This document shows, piece after piece, positions 2,999 through 15,183 of a DNA stretch of 36,787 nucleotides. Where the stretch lies: the IMG/VR virus record IMGVR_UViG_2541047684_000007; one strand, 5' to 3'. The stretch's first letter is position 1. The number at the start of each line of letters is the position of its first letter. The position numbers and the translations under genes were made by a program. The notes beneath the pieces are model-generated. The model was given only the letters and a program-made list of their open reading frames with translations, had not been told where the DNA came from and searched no databases. The DNA comes from a virus. Its lineage: Duplodnaviria; Heunggongvirae; Uroviricota; Caudoviricetes.

Positions 2999-3532
2999 TC
3001 ACTCTCTTTTTCCCTGAAGCATGGCAGCGTGGCAGGCATCCTCTACGCCCTTAACTGCATCTGCGCAGTAGTTATAGCGATTGCATTCCACTAACTTCTG
3101 CCTGAGATTTTCAATTGCTTGCGCGACATCAGCCTGTATTACAGGAACTGGCGGAACGGCTGTCTGCTGCTCTCGAACGTCATTAGTCGCTATCGGTTCT
3201 GCTGCCAACTGACTGGCATATTTGTTAATGGTAACGATAAGCTCTTGCTCAGCCTCATCCAGACAATCACCGATACCTCGCCTGTCGCCGTCAAAATCAT
3301 CGAAATCAGCACGAACTCTGGCAAATTTCAGGATTGCGGACAACACCTCACCAGGAATTACCGGAGAGTTGGTTGACGTTTCCGAAATTTCCCGAAAATT
3401 ATTGGTTGACGAATTCGCGTTTTCCCGAAAGTTTCCGGCATGAAGCATAGCCGCGCGGCAGGCGTTCCAGCCTCTCACCTCTGCAATAGCGGCAACAGCA
3501 TCGACCGCGTACATGCTAAGAGGGTTAGGCAT
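2999..3532 (-). CDS. Hypothetical protein with internal low-complexity repeat
   Basis: The track ORF begins with TTG at 3607; the first ATG is at 3532. Contains a repeated GNFREN / TNNFREI segment encoded by short DNA repeats at about 3369-3430. Confidence 0.45.
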   Translation of the reverse strand: MPNPLSMYAVDAVAAIAEVRGWNACRAAMLHAGNFRENANSSTNNFREISETSTNSPVIPGEVLSAILKFARVRADFDDFDGDRRGIGDCLDEAEQELIVTINKYASQLAAEPIATNDVREQQTAVPPVPVIQADVAQAIENLRQKLVECNRYNYCADAVKGVEDACHAAMLQGKRE

Positions 3533-8675: not shown

Positions 8676-9257
8676 ATGAACAACTCATGGTGGCAGGAAC
8701 TAATGCATTTTTTCCTGCAAGGAATGACACTTAAACAGTTGATTCATATGCTAATCATCCTGATCATATTGATTATTGTTATGCCGGTAAGCGTAAAAGA
8801 ATGGATAAACCTGCATAGTCCAGAAATCCTTCCTCATTACTGGATGTATTACATCCTGTTGTTTTGCGTTAGCTATGTGCTTAACGGCGTTGTTAATTCC
8901 GCTTATCACGCTGTGACTGAAAGAATTGAGGTATTCGCTGCTCAGAAGCGCAAATCTAAAGAAGAAAAATATGTGCAAGATTTGTTTGATTCGTTAACTC
9001 TTGGAGAAAGAGCGTATTTGGCATTCGCTGTAGCCGCTAATAACCAGCTACAAACGGAAAAGGGCGCTCATGAATCAATTTCATTGCTCAAAAAAGGACT
9101 CCTCGTTCGAAGGCCTCCTGCTGTTGGATATCCTGATACCGACCGTTTCGTTATCCCTGAAAGCTATAGACATGAGTGCTACATTAGGTTTGCCGGGAAG
9201 GCAGACAGCCTTATGGATGAACTTATCGCTCAGGATAAGCATGGCAAAAACAAGTAA
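8676..9257 (+). CDS. sieB: SieB superinfection exclusion protein
   Basis: 193 aa, opposite in orientation to the pL operon and between ral and N as in lambda. Hydrophobic N-terminal segment (LIHMLIILIILIIVMPV). Confidence 0.75.
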   Translation: MNNSWWQELMHFFLQGMTLKQLIHMLIILIILIIVMPVSVKEWINLHSPEILPHYWMYYILLFCVSYVLNGVVNSAYHAVTERIEVFAAQKRKSKEEKYVQDLFDSLTLGERAYLAFAVAANNQLQTEKGAHESISLLKKGLLVRRPPAVGYPDTDRFVIPESYRHECYIRFAGKADSLMDELIAQDKHGKNK

Positions 9258-9273
9258 TTAGCAAATGAATTTA

Positions 9274-9546
9274 TCATCTCGCCGTCAGTTGTTTTGATTT
9301 CCGGTAGCCTGCCGCGTAAAGAGCTACGTTCGGAAGACAAGTTGAACCTTCATATTTTCTGGTCAACGTTGTCAGAGTTATCACTTCTGCTCTCATTGCT
9401 GGTTTGAGCTTGCATTGCAAGACCACTCGTGAAGGGGTTGGCCTGTGTAGCTTGTCGGAGCTGATCGCCTCCTGACTTTGCAGATTTGCGCGACGAGCTC
9501 TACGGCGAGAAGCTGCGGTGCCTTTAAATTCTGTTTTTCTGGACAT
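9274..9546 (-). CDS. N: N-type transcription antiterminator (P22 gp24-like)
   Basis: ATG at 9546 with GGGAGGA SD. Arginine-rich motif GTAASRRRARRAN near the N-terminus. C-terminus NVALYAAGYRKSKQLTAR resembles P22 gp24 (GVALYAAGHRKSKQITAR) rather than lambda N. Confidence 0.75.
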   Translation of the reverse strand: MSRKTEFKGTAASRRRARRANLQSQEAISSDKLHRPTPSRVVLQCKLKPAMRAEVITLTTLTRKYEGSTCLPNVALYAAGYRKSKQLTAR

Positions 9547-9949: not shown

Positions 9950-9978
9950 GCAAAGAAAACCCGGCGCTGAGGCCGGGT
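9950..9978 (-). terminator. Rho-independent terminator closing the cI / two-gene cassette operon
   Basis: Hairpin ACCCGGC-(loop)-GCCGGGT at 9959-9978, followed on the minus strand by a U-rich run (UUUCUUUG). Lies immediately 3' of the 250-aa gene stop at 9983. Confidence 0.55.
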
Positions 9979-9982
9979 TGTA

Positions 9983-10735
9983 TTATGCTGCAAGTCTCTT
10001 AACCCAAGTCTCTCTTTTGGAGAATGGTAGAACTTGGCTTGATTCATGGAAGAGTAAGGAGAGTTGTTGCATTTGATCACCAATTGCTTCGCTGTCTATA
10101 ACAACAAATCTGTTGTTATACTCCTCACTTGAAGCTTTAAGATCAATTAGTTTCCCAAGCAATGAGTAAGCACTATTCCAGCTTCCTCCGTGTTTCACGC
10201 TTGATGTAAAAACGTATTTAGGTATGTCGGTTTTTATTGTTACAGGGACGGTAATTTGATGTCCACTCAAGCCATATACGTTTTCACGAAGAGAAAGTGC
10301 GTCTCTAAGCTCTGTGTGATATAGATAATCAATAACCATACTTTCAAACTTTTCAGCTTGAACTGGCTGATACCAGTCTAACGACAAAGTTGATGCGAGT
10401 ATACCAGCTCTAATTATGTTCGATGTAATCGCACCGACATCCTTTTCTGTTGCCCAAGCAATGATTTCTCCTCGAGCATTGAGTTCTGCGCCTTCTTTAA
10501 GCAGTAATTGTCGTATCTCATCAAGTCGTTTTTTGGTAAGCGAGATCCCTCTTGCCTCCATATTCATTAAGGCATCGCATCTGTCACTAACTAAATACCT
10601 ACCATTGACTTCACGGATAAAGGCACCGACATGCTCTCCATCATCACAGTAAGTGAATGGACTGATAATTCTCAAGGTCTTGCCTATTGGATGGCATTCG
10701 AAACCTAGTTGTGAGATCACTGTTGAGCACATCAT
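9983..10735 (-). CDS. Hypothetical protein, distal gene of the rex-position cassette
   Basis: 250 aa. Its ATG overlaps the upstream stop (ATGA), implying translational coupling. No Walker A, HEPN or transmembrane segment visible by eye. AT-rich relative to flanking genes. Confidence 0.7.
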   Translation of the reverse strand: MMCSTVISQLGFECHPIGKTLRIISPFTYCDDGEHVGAFIREVNGRYLVSDRCDALMNMEARGISLTKKRLDEIRQLLLKEGAELNARGEIIAWATEKDVGAITSNIIRAGILASTLSLDWYQPVQAEKFESMVIDYLYHTELRDALSLRENVYGLSGHQITVPVTIKTDIPKYVFTSSVKHGGSWNSAYSLLGKLIDLKASSEEYNNRFVVIDSEAIGDQMQQLSLLFHESSQVLPFSKRETWVKRLAA

Positions 10736-11289
10736 ATTCCAAACCCCATTTGCCCCGACTCATCTTCAAGCGGTAAAGGTATTCTCCCAGAGTAAGTTAT
10801 GTTCAGATGTTTACAGAAGTAATTCCAATACCCTACCAGGTCATCTGGGTTTATGTCATCTTCGATTGGAAACGCTATTCTATCACTATAGTATCCAGCT
10901 TCTTCATAGTATACATGGTAGTGAGCACCGTAAATGATATCTTGGTACTTCGGATGATCGACCTTGTAACTATTCGTGTGTTTGTCAAAGTGATAGGTAT
11001 CTACCGCGAAAACCCTCTTGTTATGATAGAAAGCAATAATATTTATTTTAGGGTAAGAAATCGGGTCATCAGGTTCTGAATCCTGATCTGGTTTCCATTT
11101 CAGTTCAAACTTTAGCCCTTGTATAGGTATACAATCCTCATCCAAGGGGATGATATGGGCTTGTAGCCACATATCAGAGCGACTTGGTTTCTGTTTCCAT
11201 TTAACGCCAGAAAAGTTAACTATTTTTTTACAATAAAGTACTTTATCAACTTCTACTTGGCTTGGCTGATAATCATCTATTTTTGCCAA
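10732..11289 (-). CDS. Hypothetical Tyr/His/Asp-rich protein, proximal gene of the rex-position cassette
   Basis: 185 aa. Starts with TTG at 11287-11289, 40 nt after the cI stop, with an in-frame TAA two codons upstream. The first in-frame ATG is at codon 40. No recognisable motif. Confidence 0.6.
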   Translation of the reverse strand: MAKIDDYQPSQVEVDKVLYCKKIVNFSGVKWKQKPSRSDMWLQAHIIPLDEDCIPIQGLKFELKWKPDQDSEPDDPISYPKINIIAFYHNKRVFAVDTYHFDKHTNSYKVDHPKYQDIIYGAHYHVYYEEAGYYSDRIAFPIEDDINPDDLVGYWNYFCKHLNITYSGRIPLPLEDESGQMGFGI

Positions 11290-11328
11290 TGTTTACCGCC
11301 CTGTAAATTGTAGATAAAAGTGGTTTCA

Positions 11329-11988
11329 TCACCCAAACGTCTCTTCAGGCCATTGGCTGGCGATAACTTTCCCCACAACGGAACAACTCTCATTGCATGG
11401 GATCATTGGGTATTGTGGGTTTAGTGGCTGTAGAAACACCTGACCGCTATCCCTGATCAGTTTCTTGAAGGTAAATTCATCACCACCAAGTCTGGCTATG
11501 CAGAAATCGCCGGGCTCAACAGCTTGCTCAGGGTCAACCAGAATTAACATCCCGTCAGGAAAGCTGGGTTTGGAACCTGTTGGTGCGGTCATTGAGTTAC
11601 CTTCAACCTCAAGCCAGAATGCAGAGTCACTGGCTTTTTTGGTTGTGCTTACCAATCTCTCCGCATCGCCTTTGGTAAAGGTTCTGAGTTCTGGAGAGAA
11701 CATCCCAGCCTGAACATGAGAAAAAACAGGGTACTCATATTGTTTTTTAACTGGGGCCGATGAGTATTCGCCAACAGGTGAAAATGTCCCGTCGTGGTTG
11801 AATGATATGTTATCAATACCAAGGTATTTAAACACCACACCAATATCACTAAGAGATGGATGACGAGATCCGCGCAACCAGTGTCCAATCCCACCCTGCG
11901 TCATACCTAGCTCTTCGGCTAACTTCTCTTGAGTTATGCCGAGCTCTTTCATTCTGGATCTAGCCAGTTCATACCATTTCATTTTCAT
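11329..11988 (-). CDS. cI: CI prophage repressor (lambda-like C-terminal domain, distinct N-terminal HTH domain)
   Basis: The C-terminal ~135 aa are near-identical to the lambda CI RecA-mediated autocleavage domain ([95 protein letters not shown]...). The N-terminal HTH ([23 protein letters not shown]) is unlike lambda. Start chosen at the ATG at 11988 with AAGGAC SD; alternatives are ATG 12024 or TTG 12030. Confidence 0.9.
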
Positions 11989-12030
11989 GTCCTTATTATT
12001 ACGCTCTGTACTGGAACCATCCATGCACAA

Positions 12031-12399: not shown

Positions 12400-12425
12400 T
12401 ATGCGTTTCCACGCATACCTTTCAA
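12400..12425 (+). terminator. Candidate tR1-region hairpin
   Basis: Stem TATGCGT / ACGCATA with loop TTCC, followed by CCTTTCAACT, between cro and cII. Only a weak U-tract. Confidence 0.3.
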
Positions 12426-12455
12426 CTAACTATTCACTATTGGAAATCTTAAGAA

Positions 12456-12752
12456 ATGGAAAGAACAAGTTACAGCAAACTATCACAGCGTGACGTTGAT
12501 CGCGCAGAAACAGATTTACTTATCAATCTGTCAGCTATTACCCAGCGCGGTCTGGCAAAGATGATTGGCTGTCATGAATCGAAGATAAGCAGAACGGACT
12601 GGAGATTTATTGCTTCGGTCTTGTGTGCTTTCGGAATGGCATCAGACATCAGTCCGATTAGCAGGGCTTTTAAGTATGCGCTTGATGGACTCACCAATAA
12701 AAAACGCCCGGCGGCAACCGAGCGTTCTGAACAAATCCAGATGGAATTCTGA
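12456..12752 (+). CDS. cII: CII transcriptional activator
   Basis: 98 aa. C-terminus TNKKRPAATERSEQIQMEF is identical to lambda CII; the N-terminal half diverges. Confidence 0.9.
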   Translation: MERTSYSKLSQRDVDRAETDLLINLSAITQRGLAKMIGCHESKISRTDWRFIASVLCAFGMASDISPISRAFKYALDGLTNKKRPAATERSEQIQMEF

Positions 12753-12784
12753 GGTCATTACTGGATCAATCCACAGGAGTCATT

Positions 12785-14382: not shown

Positions 14383-14669
14383 CGGGCAAAGAGGCAATTA
14401 TTCATTACCTGGGGACGCATAATAGCTTCTGTGCGCCGGACGTTGCCGCGCTAACAGGCGCAACAGTAACCAGCATAAATCAGGCCGCGGCTAAAATGGC
14501 ACGGGCAGGTCTTCTGGTTATCGAAGGTAAGGTCTGGCGAACGGTGTATTACCGGTTTGCTACCAAGGAAGAACGGGAAGGAAAGATGAGCACGAACCTG
14601 ATTTTTAAGGAGTGTCGCCAGAGTGCCACGATGAAACGGATATTGGCGGTATATGGAGTTAAAAGATGA
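14379..14669 (+). CDS. ren: Ren
   Basis: 96 aa at the lambda ren position, overlapping the P stop. Sequence matches lambda Ren as I recall it. Confidence 0.8.
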   Translation: MTGKEAIIHYLGTHNSFCAPDVAALTGATVTSINQAAAKMARAGLLVIEGKVWRTVYYRFATKEEREGKMSTNLIFKECRQSATMKRILAVYGVKR

Positions 14670-14742
14670 CCATCTACATCACTGAGCTAATAACAGGCCT
14701 GCAGGTAATCGCAGGCCTTTTTATTTGGGGGAGAGGGAAGTC

Positions 14743-15183
14743 ATGAAAAAACTAACCTTTGAAATTCGATCTCCGGCACATCAGCAAAACGCTATTCACG
14801 CAGTACAGCAAATCCTTCCAGACCCAACCAAACCAATCGTAGTAACCATTCAGGAACGCAACCGCAGCTTAGACCAAAACAGGAAGCTATGGGCCTGCTT
14901 AGGTGACGTCTCTCGTCAGGTTGAATGGCATGGTCGCTGGCTGGATGCAGAAAGCTGGAAGTGTGTGTTTACCGCAGCATTAAAGCAGCAGGATGTTGTT
15001 CCTAACCTTGCCGGGAATGGCTTTGTGGTAATAGGCCAGTCAACCAGCAGGATGCGTGTAAGCGAATTTGCGGAGCTATTAGAGCTTATACAGGCATTCG
15101 GTACAGAGCGTGGCGTTAAGTGGTCAGACGAAGCGCGACTGGCTCTCGAATGGAAAGCGCGATGGGGAGATCGGGCTGCATGA
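14743..15183 (+). CDS. ninB: NinB (Orf-family recombination mediator)
   Basis: ATG at 14743 with GAGGGAAG SD. 146 aa matching lambda NinB (MKKLTFEIRSPAHQQNAIHAVQQILPDPTKPIVVTIQERNRSLDQNRKLWACLGD...). Confidence 0.85.
   Translation: MKKLTFEIRSPAHQQNAIHAVQQILPDPTKPIVVTIQERNRSLDQNRKLWACLGDVSRQVEWHGRWLDAESWKCVFTAALKQQDVVPNLAGNGFVVIGQSTSRMRVSEFAELLELIQAFGTERGVKWSDEARLALEWKARWGDRAA

What the first reader, a model, noticed from the sequence alone, without database searches (positions are those of the whole stretch)
9950..11328. Unrecognised two-gene cassette in the rexA-rexB position downstream of cI
In lambda the repressor operon is cI-rexA-rexB, a classic prophage-encoded phage-exclusion system. 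Here the cI homologue (11329..11988) is followed 40 nt downstream, on the same strand, by two ORFs (185 aa at 10732..11289; 250 aa at 9983..10735) that resemble neither RexA nor RexB nor any protein family I recognise. The two genes overlap by ATGA, implying translational coupling, and end at a hairpin-plus-U-tract terminator (about 9950-9978) just before the pL/N region. The cassette looks AT-rich by eye relative to the flanking cI and N genes, typical of horizontally swapped accessory modules. Neither protein shows a signal peptide, transmembrane helix, Walker A, or obvious HEPN or nuclease motif; RexB is a membrane protein, so a Rex-like mechanism is unlikely. The proximal gene uses a TTG start, consistent with low-level constitutive expression from the lysogen. 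Position, operon structure and composition together make this a strong candidate for an undescribed defence or superinfection-exclusion system expressed from pRM.
Basis: partly seen in the sequence, partly recalled or inferred. Interest (0 to 1): 0.85.

Follow-up and report, generated by a model that had tools for sequence, protein, structure and literature searches.

The report
Untested two-gene cargo after cI
A lambda-like E. coli phage carries, exactly where lambda has its rexAB exclusion genes, a conserved pair of uncharacterised genes that is very probably a new anti-phage defence module, is also present in E. coli CFT073 and Nissle 1917, and has never been tested.

Summary
Two overlapping, purifying-selected genes (A, 185 aa, 10732-11289; B, 250 aa, 9983-10735; minus strand) lie between cI and the Timm terminator of phage PhiR57_1. 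B is a Pfam DUF1828 protein and a full-length match to PADLOC candidate PDC-M24B. A is a weak, divergent match to DUF6978/PDC-M24A. No function has been tested in any source I could search.

The swapped module is 9980-11326. Phage PhiR11_1 has a 99% identical cI and other cargo there. Among 70 viral contigs with this cI, the slot holds at least 16 cargo types, including RexA, BstA and PD-lambda-2/TAC. A+B is the commonest (26 of 70, in two diverged alleles). A directly precedes B in all 92 loci surveyed, from Enterobacterales to Aeromonas and Pseudomonas phages, nearly always after a prophage repressor.

B's model has a chaperone-like N-domain and a restriction-endonuclease-like C-domain without the canonical catalytic motif. 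A has no known fold and a conserved Asp/His cluster.

Best reading: a lysogen-expressed two-protein defence module. Defence is inferred from context only, and the mechanism is speculative. Interest is moderate to high.

The parts
11329..12024 (-). cI-type prophage repressor (HTH_3 + Peptidase_S24). It is the upstream gene of the presumed operon and is context, not cargo.
   Evidence: Pfam S24 E 1e-28 and HTH_3 E 2e-10. Annotated cI in PV340572.1. 99% identical to the cI of PhiR11_1, which carries different cargo.
11290..11328 (-). 39-nt cI-A spacer. It lies inside the swapped module and has a GGGCGG Shine-Dalgarno-like element 6 nt before the TTG start.
   Evidence: Sequence. No terminator-like site here. 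Homology to PhiR11_1 resumes only at 11327.
10732..11289 (-). Gene A: 185 aa, 21.8 kDa, acidic, beta-rich, soluble. Family-wide invariant R92, D97, N106, G121, H123 and H125, with H104 nearly invariant. Conserved but disordered C-terminal tail (…ESGQMGFGI). TTG start.
9983..10735 (-). Gene B: 250 aa, soluble, two domains. The N-terminal DUF1828 domain (about 1-117) has an alpha-beta(4)-alpha-alpha-beta-alpha topology resembling YbjN/T3SS chaperones. The C-terminal domain (about 129-250) has an alpha-beta-beta-beta-alpha-beta restriction-endonuclease-like topology. G155-x-S157-G158, P164, G194 and D198 are invariant, and H159 is kept in 8 of 9 sequences.
10732..10735 (-). ATGA stop/start overlap between A and B, implying translational coupling.
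   Evidence: My tblastn-based coordinates give a 4-nt overlap in all 29 distinct orthologue contexts, but in the seven most divergent ones B's true start looks to lie upstream, so the overlap there may be longer. The overlap is also present in the Pseudomonas phage phPA-G.
9949..9979 (-). Timm-type intrinsic terminator. It ends the presumed cI-A-B transcript and forms the conserved left boundary of the hotspot.
   Evidence: Terminator scan. RNAfold -17 kcal/mol. About 94% identical to the lambda rexB 3' end/Timm region and present in 214 phage records. Annotated as Timm in HK542.
9980..11326 (-). The mobile cargo module as delimited by recombination breakpoints (1347 bp).
   Evidence: blastn against PhiR11_1 and 2G7b: 99% identity up to 9979 and from 11327 onward, and nothing in between.

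Best explanation
The cassette is a mobile two-gene cargo module of the lambdoid cI-to-Timm hotspot. It is most probably expressed in the lysogen as the distal part of the cI transcript, and most probably protects the lysogen against other phages.

Shown:
- A and B are an obligate, co-inherited, translationally coupled pair under strong purifying selection.
- The pair moves as a unit between prophage immunity regions with at least ten sequence clusters of S24-type repressor, plus a few HTH-only ones.
- It is the commonest of at least 16 alternative cargos behind this window's cI. Those alternatives include RexA, BstA and PD-lambda-2/TAC.

Inferred mechanism:
- A and B form a cytoplasmic complex. 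A's conserved disordered C-terminal tail is a candidate for docking onto B's chaperone-like DUF1828 domain.
- That domain, or A's Asp/His putative metal site, senses a phage component.
- B's restriction-endonuclease-like C-terminal domain acts on nucleic acid to block the invader or abort the infection. It would use a non-canonical site built around GxSGH and D198, or it would only bind.
- The conserved non-ATG start of A keeps the level of both proteins low.
For: Pairing:
- A lies directly upstream of B in all 92 surveyed loci.
- The pairing persists at 22-33% identity for A in 5 further distinct loci and in a Pseudomonas phage.
- The stop/start overlap and the non-ATG start are conserved.
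- dN/dS is about 0.08.

Operon context:
- The upstream gene is an S24 or HTH repressor in nearly all of 91 loci.
- There is no terminator between cI and A, and Timm follows directly after B.

Hotspot:
- Breakpoints fall at 9979 and 11327 relative to PhiR11_1, whose cI is 99% identical.
- 70 same-cI contigs hold at least 16 cargo types: A+B in 21, a diverged A+B allele in 5, and also RexA (E 3.5e-116), BstA (E 4e-106), PD-Lambda-2_B plus PD-T4-9_C, and PDC-S13.
- mEp506 carries HicA/B/C at this position.
- The literature describes this position as a defence locus (PMC8585504; 10.1101/2024.02.24.581848).

Family:
- Among 5,027 PADLOC models, both proteins hit only the two halves of one candidate system, PDC-M24.

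Folds:
- B. A: conserved D/H cluster.

Retention:
- The cassette is at least 99% identical in 241 of 5,426 complete E. coli genomes, including the defective Nissle prophage.
Against: - There is no phenotype for this pair or for PDC-M24 in any text I could search.
- Hotspot neighbours prove nothing about a given cargo. Several cargos in the slot are equally unknown.
- The A-to-DUF6978/PDC-M24A link is weak: E about 1e-4, below Pfam's threshold, and covering the C-terminal third only.
- B's nuclease-like domain lacks a conserved D…(D/E)xK. K173 is lost in distant members, and no nuclease Pfam family is hit. It may be catalytically dead.
- The A-B interaction was not modelled.
- Co-transcription with cI is not shown.
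- One distant pair (L101) lies in a non-prophage context.
Confidence: 0.55

Rival explanations
1. The pair modulates the prophage's own lysis-lysogeny switch or induction. Lambda RexA has such a role besides exclusion. It would not defend against other phages.
For: The position in the repressor operon is strictly conserved. The RexA precedent (Thomason et al. 2021) is cited in PMC12315714. A BRCT-domain protein accompanies the pair in Aeromonas and Pseudomonas phages, which hints at DNA-damage or DNA-end biology.
Against: The pair is carried behind at least ten unrelated repressor clusters, so it cannot depend on one specific repressor or operator. It is kept intact in a defective, non-inducible Nissle prophage (PMC5987069). 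It is freely exchanged with bona fide defence systems behind the same cI.
Confidence: 0.12
2. The pair is a toxin-antitoxin-type addiction module that stabilises the prophage. One protein would be toxic and the other would neutralise it, with no phage-sensing role.
For: Two overlapping genes on a mobile element, with a weak start on the first gene. TA and TAC modules do occupy this slot: the mEp506 HicABC annotation and L160.
Against: There is no match to any TA family in Pfam, NCBIfam or PADLOC. No HTH/RHH antitoxin-like domain is present. Both proteins are large for a type II TA (185 and 250 aa). In this slot, TA-type modules have themselves proved to be defence systems, so this rival overlaps with the main explanation.
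Confidence: 0.12
3. The pair is a lysogenic-conversion or host-fitness factor unrelated to phages, for example a stress, metal or nucleic-acid metabolism function that benefits extraintestinal E. coli.
For: It is fixed at >=99% identity in 241 genomes, including CFT073 and Nissle. A has a putative metal site. One distant pair sits beside merR-type and cation-efflux genes (L101).
Against: Almost every occurrence is in a prophage immunity region, not in metabolic or virulence islands. It occurs on no plasmid. The slot's characterised cargos are all anti-phage.
Confidence: 0.08

Closest known systems
Lambda RexAB (phage exclusion, cI-rexA-rexB operon)
   Same: Identical genomic slot, bounded by the cI stop and Timm. 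Two genes on the cI strand, presumably lysogen-expressed. Found as an alternative cargo behind the same cI (L171: RexA E 3.5e-116).
   Different: No sequence or fold relationship. Neither A nor B hits the RexA model. RexB is a membrane protein, whereas A and B have no TM segment.
PADLOC-DB v2 candidate system PDC-M24 (a two-gene 'guilt-by-embedding' candidate, not experimentally verified to my knowledge)
   Same: B matches PDC-M24B end to end (positions 4-254 of 256, E 4.7e-10). A's only PADLOC hits are PDC-M24A models. The gene order is A then B.
   Different: A's match is marginal (E 5e-4, last third only). This branch lives in prophage immunity regions rather than inside RM, BREX or Hma loci. 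It is a deeply diverged subfamily.
BstA (Salmonella BTP1) and HigBAC / PD-lambda-2 toxin-antitoxin-chaperone systems
   Same: These are defence cargos located downstream of the prophage repressor, and they alternate with A+B behind the same cI. BstA and a HigBAC have shown anti-phage phenotypes in the cited papers.
   Different: Unrelated proteins. BstA is a single KilA-N-type protein. TAC is an RNase toxin plus antitoxin plus SecB-like chaperone.
Can2/Card1 and the Cfr10I/NgoMIV/PspGI group of PD-(D/E)xK nucleases
   Different: B's N-domain is chaperone-like, not CARF. No conserved catalytic D…(D/E)xK or SxK…E set is present. There is no sequence-level relationship.

Membership tests
PADLOC PDC-M24 (candidate) | Protein matching the PDC-M24B profile | tested here: met
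   E 4.7e-10, profile positions 4-254 of 256. A second M24B model gives 1.5e-7. The diverged allele L118 also hits M24B.
PADLOC PDC-M24 (candidate) | Adjacent protein matching the PDC-M24A profile | tested here: inconclusive
   E 4.8e-4, profile positions 79-134 of 148 only. No M24A model is hit by more than 3 of the 15 A-family members scanned (3, 3 and 1 members for three models). No other PADLOC family is hit.
PADLOC PDC-M24 (candidate) | Anti-phage phenotype | not testable with these tools
   No report found for M24. PDCs are described as predictions by embedding.
Pfam DUF1828 (PF08861) | Score above the gathering threshold | tested here: met
   B scores 33.5 bits against 22, over residues 26-110. 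RefSeq names it a DUF1828 domain-containing protein.
Pfam DUF6978 (PF22398) | Score above the gathering threshold | tested here: not met
   A scores 22 bits against 29.6. 5 of 15 family members hit weakly, best E 1.1e-4. This is a distant relationship at most.
RexAB | RexA homologue | tested here: not met
   The PADLOC RexA model is not hit by A or B. The same model does detect RexA in L171 at E 3.5e-116.
RexAB | RexB polytopic membrane protein | tested here: not met
   Maximum 19-residue hydropathy is 0.45 for A and 1.19 for B.
RexAB | Location between cI and Timm on the cI strand | tested here: met
PD-(D/E)xK nuclease superfamily (B C-terminal domain) | alpha-beta-beta-beta-alpha-beta core fold | tested here: met
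PD-(D/E)xK nuclease superfamily (B C-terminal domain) | Conserved catalytic D…(D/E)xK, or a variant with a conserved Lys | tested here: not met
   In the wide alignment only G155, S157, G158, P164, G194 and D198 are invariant, and H159 is kept in 8 of 9 sequences. K173 is replaced in distant members. No nuclease Pfam family is hit even at E<=10.
Type II toxin-antitoxin | Match to a known toxin or antitoxin family, or a DNA-binding antitoxin domain | tested here: not met
   No such hit in Pfam, NCBIfam or PADLOC.
BstA | Match to the BstA profile | tested here: not met
   Not hit by A or B. The model detects BstA in L172 at E 4e-106.

The most novel reading that the evidence does not exclude
A+B is a mechanistically new, lysogen-expressed anti-phage system. 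A would be a small metalloprotein with a fold not seen in any solved or predicted viral structure. It would work with a chaperone-like sensor fused to a non-canonical restriction-endonuclease-fold effector. The system would also be the unidentified prophage factor behind the lambda and Stx-phage resistance of E. coli Nissle 1917, where Bury et al. 2018 cloned only the neighbouring cII-like 'pr' gene.
Probability: 0.3. Interest if true: 0.78.

Novelty: new variant of a known kind. Interest (0 to 1): 0.62.

Why it matters
If the pair defends, it adds a new protein family pair, with one new fold, to the set of prophage defence systems. It would turn a PADLOC candidate (PDC-M24) into a tractable E. 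coli model.

The cassette sits in a natural isogenic series: the same cI and the same flanks, with RexAB, BstA, TAC or A+B as cargo. That series suits direct comparison of cargo function.

The cassette is in 4.4% of complete E. coli genomes, including the probiotic Nissle 1917 and the uropathogen CFT073. It could therefore affect phage therapy, phage-based engineering of these strains, and Stx-phage transfer.

Tried and rejected
- **HK542/HK244 pair at the same slot:** not homologous to A or B.
- **PDB sequence hit of A to 'SAKe6AC' (E 4e-6, and 3e-12 with the profile):** an artefact. Six identical designed Kelch blades each score i-E of about 33, and the scores add up.
- **afdb50 fold library:** unavailable.
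- **Profile searches of both families against PDB sequences:** nothing.
- **Internal promoters, such as a pLit analogue:** promoter-like hits are not above the shuffle expectation.
- **B's C-terminal domain scanned alone against Pfam at E<=10:** only one weak DUF1829 hit, and no nuclease family.
- **Literature:** no paper mentions DUF1828, DUF6978 or PDC-M24 in a defence context, nor the RefSeq or GenBank protein accessions. The source paper of the PhiR phages was not found.
- **The Nissle 'phage repressor pr' of Bury et al.:** checked as a possible prior test of this locus. Its primers map to the cII homologue, not to the cassette.
- **Plasmids:** none carries B.

Full report
**What is there.** The window is Escherichia phage PhiR57_1 (PV340572.1, host ECOR13), at identical coordinates. 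On the minus strand the order is as follows.
- cI (11329-12024; HTH_3 + Peptidase_S24).
- A 39-nt spacer.
- Gene A (10732-11289; 185 aa; TTG start).
- Gene B (9983-10735; 250 aa), overlapping A by ATGA.
- An intrinsic terminator with its stem at 9979-9958 and a U-tract, folding at -17 kcal/mol.
- After that come the pL region, N (9274-9546) and sieB (8676-9257, plus strand).

The cassette is AT-rich. Its GC is 0.396, against 0.496 for the window, 0.465 for cI and 0.495 for N. sieB is similar at 0.412. Neither protein has a TM segment, a Walker A motif or an Rx4-6H motif.

**Are they genes?** Yes. Against orthologues at 58-82% protein identity, substitutions pile up at third codon positions (for example 39/16/155 for B and 42/29/101 for A). 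dS is saturated, and dN/dS is about 0.08 where it can be computed. The N-terminus MAK… of A is conserved, which fixes its start codon. 28 of 29 distinct orthologue contexts use GTG (26) or TTG (2) and only one uses ATG. My tblastn-based coordinates give a 4-nt A/B overlap in all 29, although in the seven most divergent contexts B's true start looks to lie upstream, so the overlap there may be longer. A weak start codon kept across genera looks selected. The simplest reading, which is an inference, is that it holds expression of the coupled pair low.

- B passes Pfam's threshold for DUF1828. It matches PADLOC's PDC-M24B model from end to end (E 4.7e-10).
- A weakly matches DUF6978 (22 bits, below the 29.6 threshold) and PDC-M24A (E 4.8e-4, C-terminal third only).
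- Distant A relatives give the same weak hits and no others.
- Both belong to PHROGs of unknown function. NCBIfam has nothing.
- Among 5,027 PADLOC models, the two proteins hit only the two halves of one candidate system. That supports the view that this is a deeply diverged branch of that pair.
- PDC entries are predictions by recurrent embedding in known defence loci, not validated systems. I found no test of M24 and no defence paper mentioning these DUFs or these protein accessions.
- Every database name for the proteins is 'hypothetical' or 'DUF1828 domain-containing'.

**An obligate pair tied to the prophage repressor.**
- In 92 loci recovered through B (8 genomes, 80 viral contigs and 4 Aeromonas loci), an A homologue lies directly upstream of B in every one. 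A diverges faster than B: 36-66% against 50-82% identity.
- The next gene upstream is almost always a repressor. I found S24-type repressors in at least ten distinct sequence clusters, plus a few HTH-only repressors.
- Downstream lie N-like antiterminators or sieB.
- Distant A-family members (22-33% identity) still have a gene of about 250 aa immediately downstream. It is called DUF1828 in 4 of the 5 distinct loci, and two of the loci again follow an S24 repressor.
- In Pseudomonas phage phPA-G a B homologue (29.5% identity) follows a CI-like repressor. The 'empty' 670 nt in front of it encodes an unannotated A homologue with the family motifs and the 4-nt overlap.
- A's family is small. An exhaustive profile search of 1.84 billion cluster representatives found 20 at E<=1e-3.
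- No plasmid carries B.

**A swapped module in a defence hotspot.**
- Phages PhiR11_1 and 2G7b have a 99% identical cI, and N and sieB genes of the same annotated length and position, but an unrelated 283 + 163 aa pair in the slot.
- Homology to the window stops at 9979 and resumes at 11327, so the module is 9980-11326.
- The left flank, Timm, is about 94% identical to lambda's rexB 3' end.
- I fetched 80 viral contigs encoding a cI at least 97% identical to this one. 70 of them keep both flanks, and they hold at least 16 cargo types, 627-1478 nt long, with GC 0.35-0.44.
- A+B is the commonest cargo (21). A second, deeply diverged A+B allele (A 40.5%, B 51% identical) adds 5.
- PADLOC identifies other cargos as RexA (E 3.5e-116, followed by a hydrophobic ORF I take to be RexB), BstA (E 4e-106), PD-Lambda-2_B plus a PD-T4-9_C-type SecB chaperone (a TAC system), and candidate PDC-S13.
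- mEp506 carries an annotated HicA/B/C module there, and HK542 carries another unknown pair.
- This is strong contextual evidence, but it is not a phenotype.

**Structure.**
- B (AF2, pLDDT 79.5) has two domains joined by a low-confidence linker at 120-126.
- The canonical catalytic signature is not conserved. Across distant members only G155-x-S157-G158, P164, G194 and D198 stay invariant in the C-domain, and H159 is kept in 8 of 9 sequences. K173 is lost. The domain on its own hits no nuclease Pfam family, and gives only one weak DUF1829 match.
- The N-domain keeps C3, C14, S25-P26, D32-G33 and D51.
- The A family keeps R92, D97, N106, G121, H123 and H125, with H104 nearly invariant, on neighbouring strands. 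That is a plausible metal site. It also keeps a disordered C-terminal tail, …SGQ..(L/F).

**Most likely function and mechanism.** I commit to a lysogen-expressed, two-protein anti-phage module (confidence 0.55 overall).
- Shown: obligate pairing, translational coupling, purifying selection, mobility as a unit between immunity regions, and occupancy of a slot whose characterised cargos are all anti-phage.
- Inferred: co-transcription with cI; an A-B complex, with A's tail on the chaperone-like domain as the obvious candidate; sensing of a phage component; and action on nucleic acid through B's non-canonical nuclease-fold domain.
- Rivals: a modulator of the phage's own switch, as described for RexA; a pure addiction module; or a host-fitness factor.
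- The first rival is weakened by the many unrelated repressors the pair travels with, and by its retention in the defective Nissle prophage.

**Distribution and a lead.** The cassette is at least 99% identical, single-copy and chromosomal in 241 of 5,426 complete E. coli genomes, including CFT073, Nissle 1917 and ATCC 11775. In Nissle it sits in a degraded lambdoid prophage next to icd. Bury et al. 2018 attributed part of Nissle's lambda and Stx-phage resistance to a 'phage repressor pr' of this prophage, and they concluded that another prophage factor must exist. Their primers map to window 12410-12779, which is the cII homologue. Their gene table lists two 'hypothetical' genes (EcN_1291 and EcN_1292) between sieB and cI that are absent from the comparison strains. 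These are probably A and B, and the paper does not report cloning them.

**Verdict.** This is a real, well-delimited and widespread cargo module in a known defence hotspot. A distant relative is already catalogued as an untested PADLOC candidate. It is functionally uncharacterised, and one of its proteins has an unrecognised fold. I rate it a new variant of a known kind, namely repressor-linked prophage defence cargo. Interest is 0.62.

Noticed in passing
window 12410-12779 (cII homologue at 12456-12752, + strand): The cloning and qPCR primers for the E. coli Nissle 1917 'phage repressor pr' (EcN_1294) of Bury et al. 2018 map to this window's cII homologue, not to cI. The protective effect reported there was therefore obtained with a cII-like gene.
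   Followed up: partly
window 11287-11289, and orthologous loci L003-L094: The start codon of gene A is GTG or TTG in 28 of 29 distinct orthologue contexts, and it sits behind only a weak GGA-type Shine-Dalgarno element. This looks like a selected weak initiation signal for the coupled pair.
   Followed up: yes
L105 2920-3504 (probable start at 3001, 'MAKQK…'); PP083311.1, about 14449-15033: Pseudomonas phage VB_PaD_phPA-G has an unannotated homologue of gene A in a 670-nt 'empty' stretch. It overlaps the B homologue by 4 nt and lies downstream of the CI-like repressor.
   Followed up: yes
L105 2180-2830, and L003 8876-9796: A protein with repeats and a BRCT domain accompanies the A+B pair in two distant lineages. 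It lies upstream of A in the Pseudomonas phage and downstream of B in the Aeromonas caviae prophages. The two proteins are homologous (E 8e-26). It is absent from the E. coli cassette. It could be an optional third component or separate cargo.
   Followed up: partly
L108, L110, L174/L154, L155 (= PhiR11_1/2G7b cargo; L102 2680-4060), L138 (HK542-like): Behind the same cI, several other cargos have no PADLOC hit. A single 173-aa ORF type occurs in 12 of 70 contigs and a 126-aa type in 6 of 70 (the latter was not scanned). Related 348- and 332-aa proteins occur in 6 of 70, and only the 348-aa one was scanned. The PhiR11_1 283 + 163 aa pair has no Pfam hit either. These are further untested candidates in the same hotspot.
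   Followed up: partly
L118-type loci (5 of 70 same-cI contigs): A second allele of the A+B pair (A 40.5%, B 51% identical) occupies the same slot behind an essentially identical cI. Two deeply diverged versions therefore circulate in one immunity group.
   Followed up: partly
window 10732-10766 (A residues 173-185): A's C-terminal tail (P-L-E-D-E-S-G-Q-M-G-F-G-I) is conserved across the family, with 'GQ' plus hydrophobic residues kept even in Pseudomonas. AlphaFold predicts it to be disordered (pLDDT below 50). It looks like a short docking motif.
   Followed up: no
window 8676-9257 (+): A sieB superinfection-exclusion gene lies just beyond N. This phage therefore carries a second, already known exclusion function about 700 bp from the cassette. 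Any phenotype test of the region must separate the two.
   Followed up: no
L014 (NZ_JBHSON010000334.1, a 518-bp contig labelled Actinomadura rugatobispora): This tiny contig encodes the A/B junction at 64-82% identity to the enterobacterial pair. It is most likely enterobacterial contamination in an actinomycete assembly.
   Followed up: no
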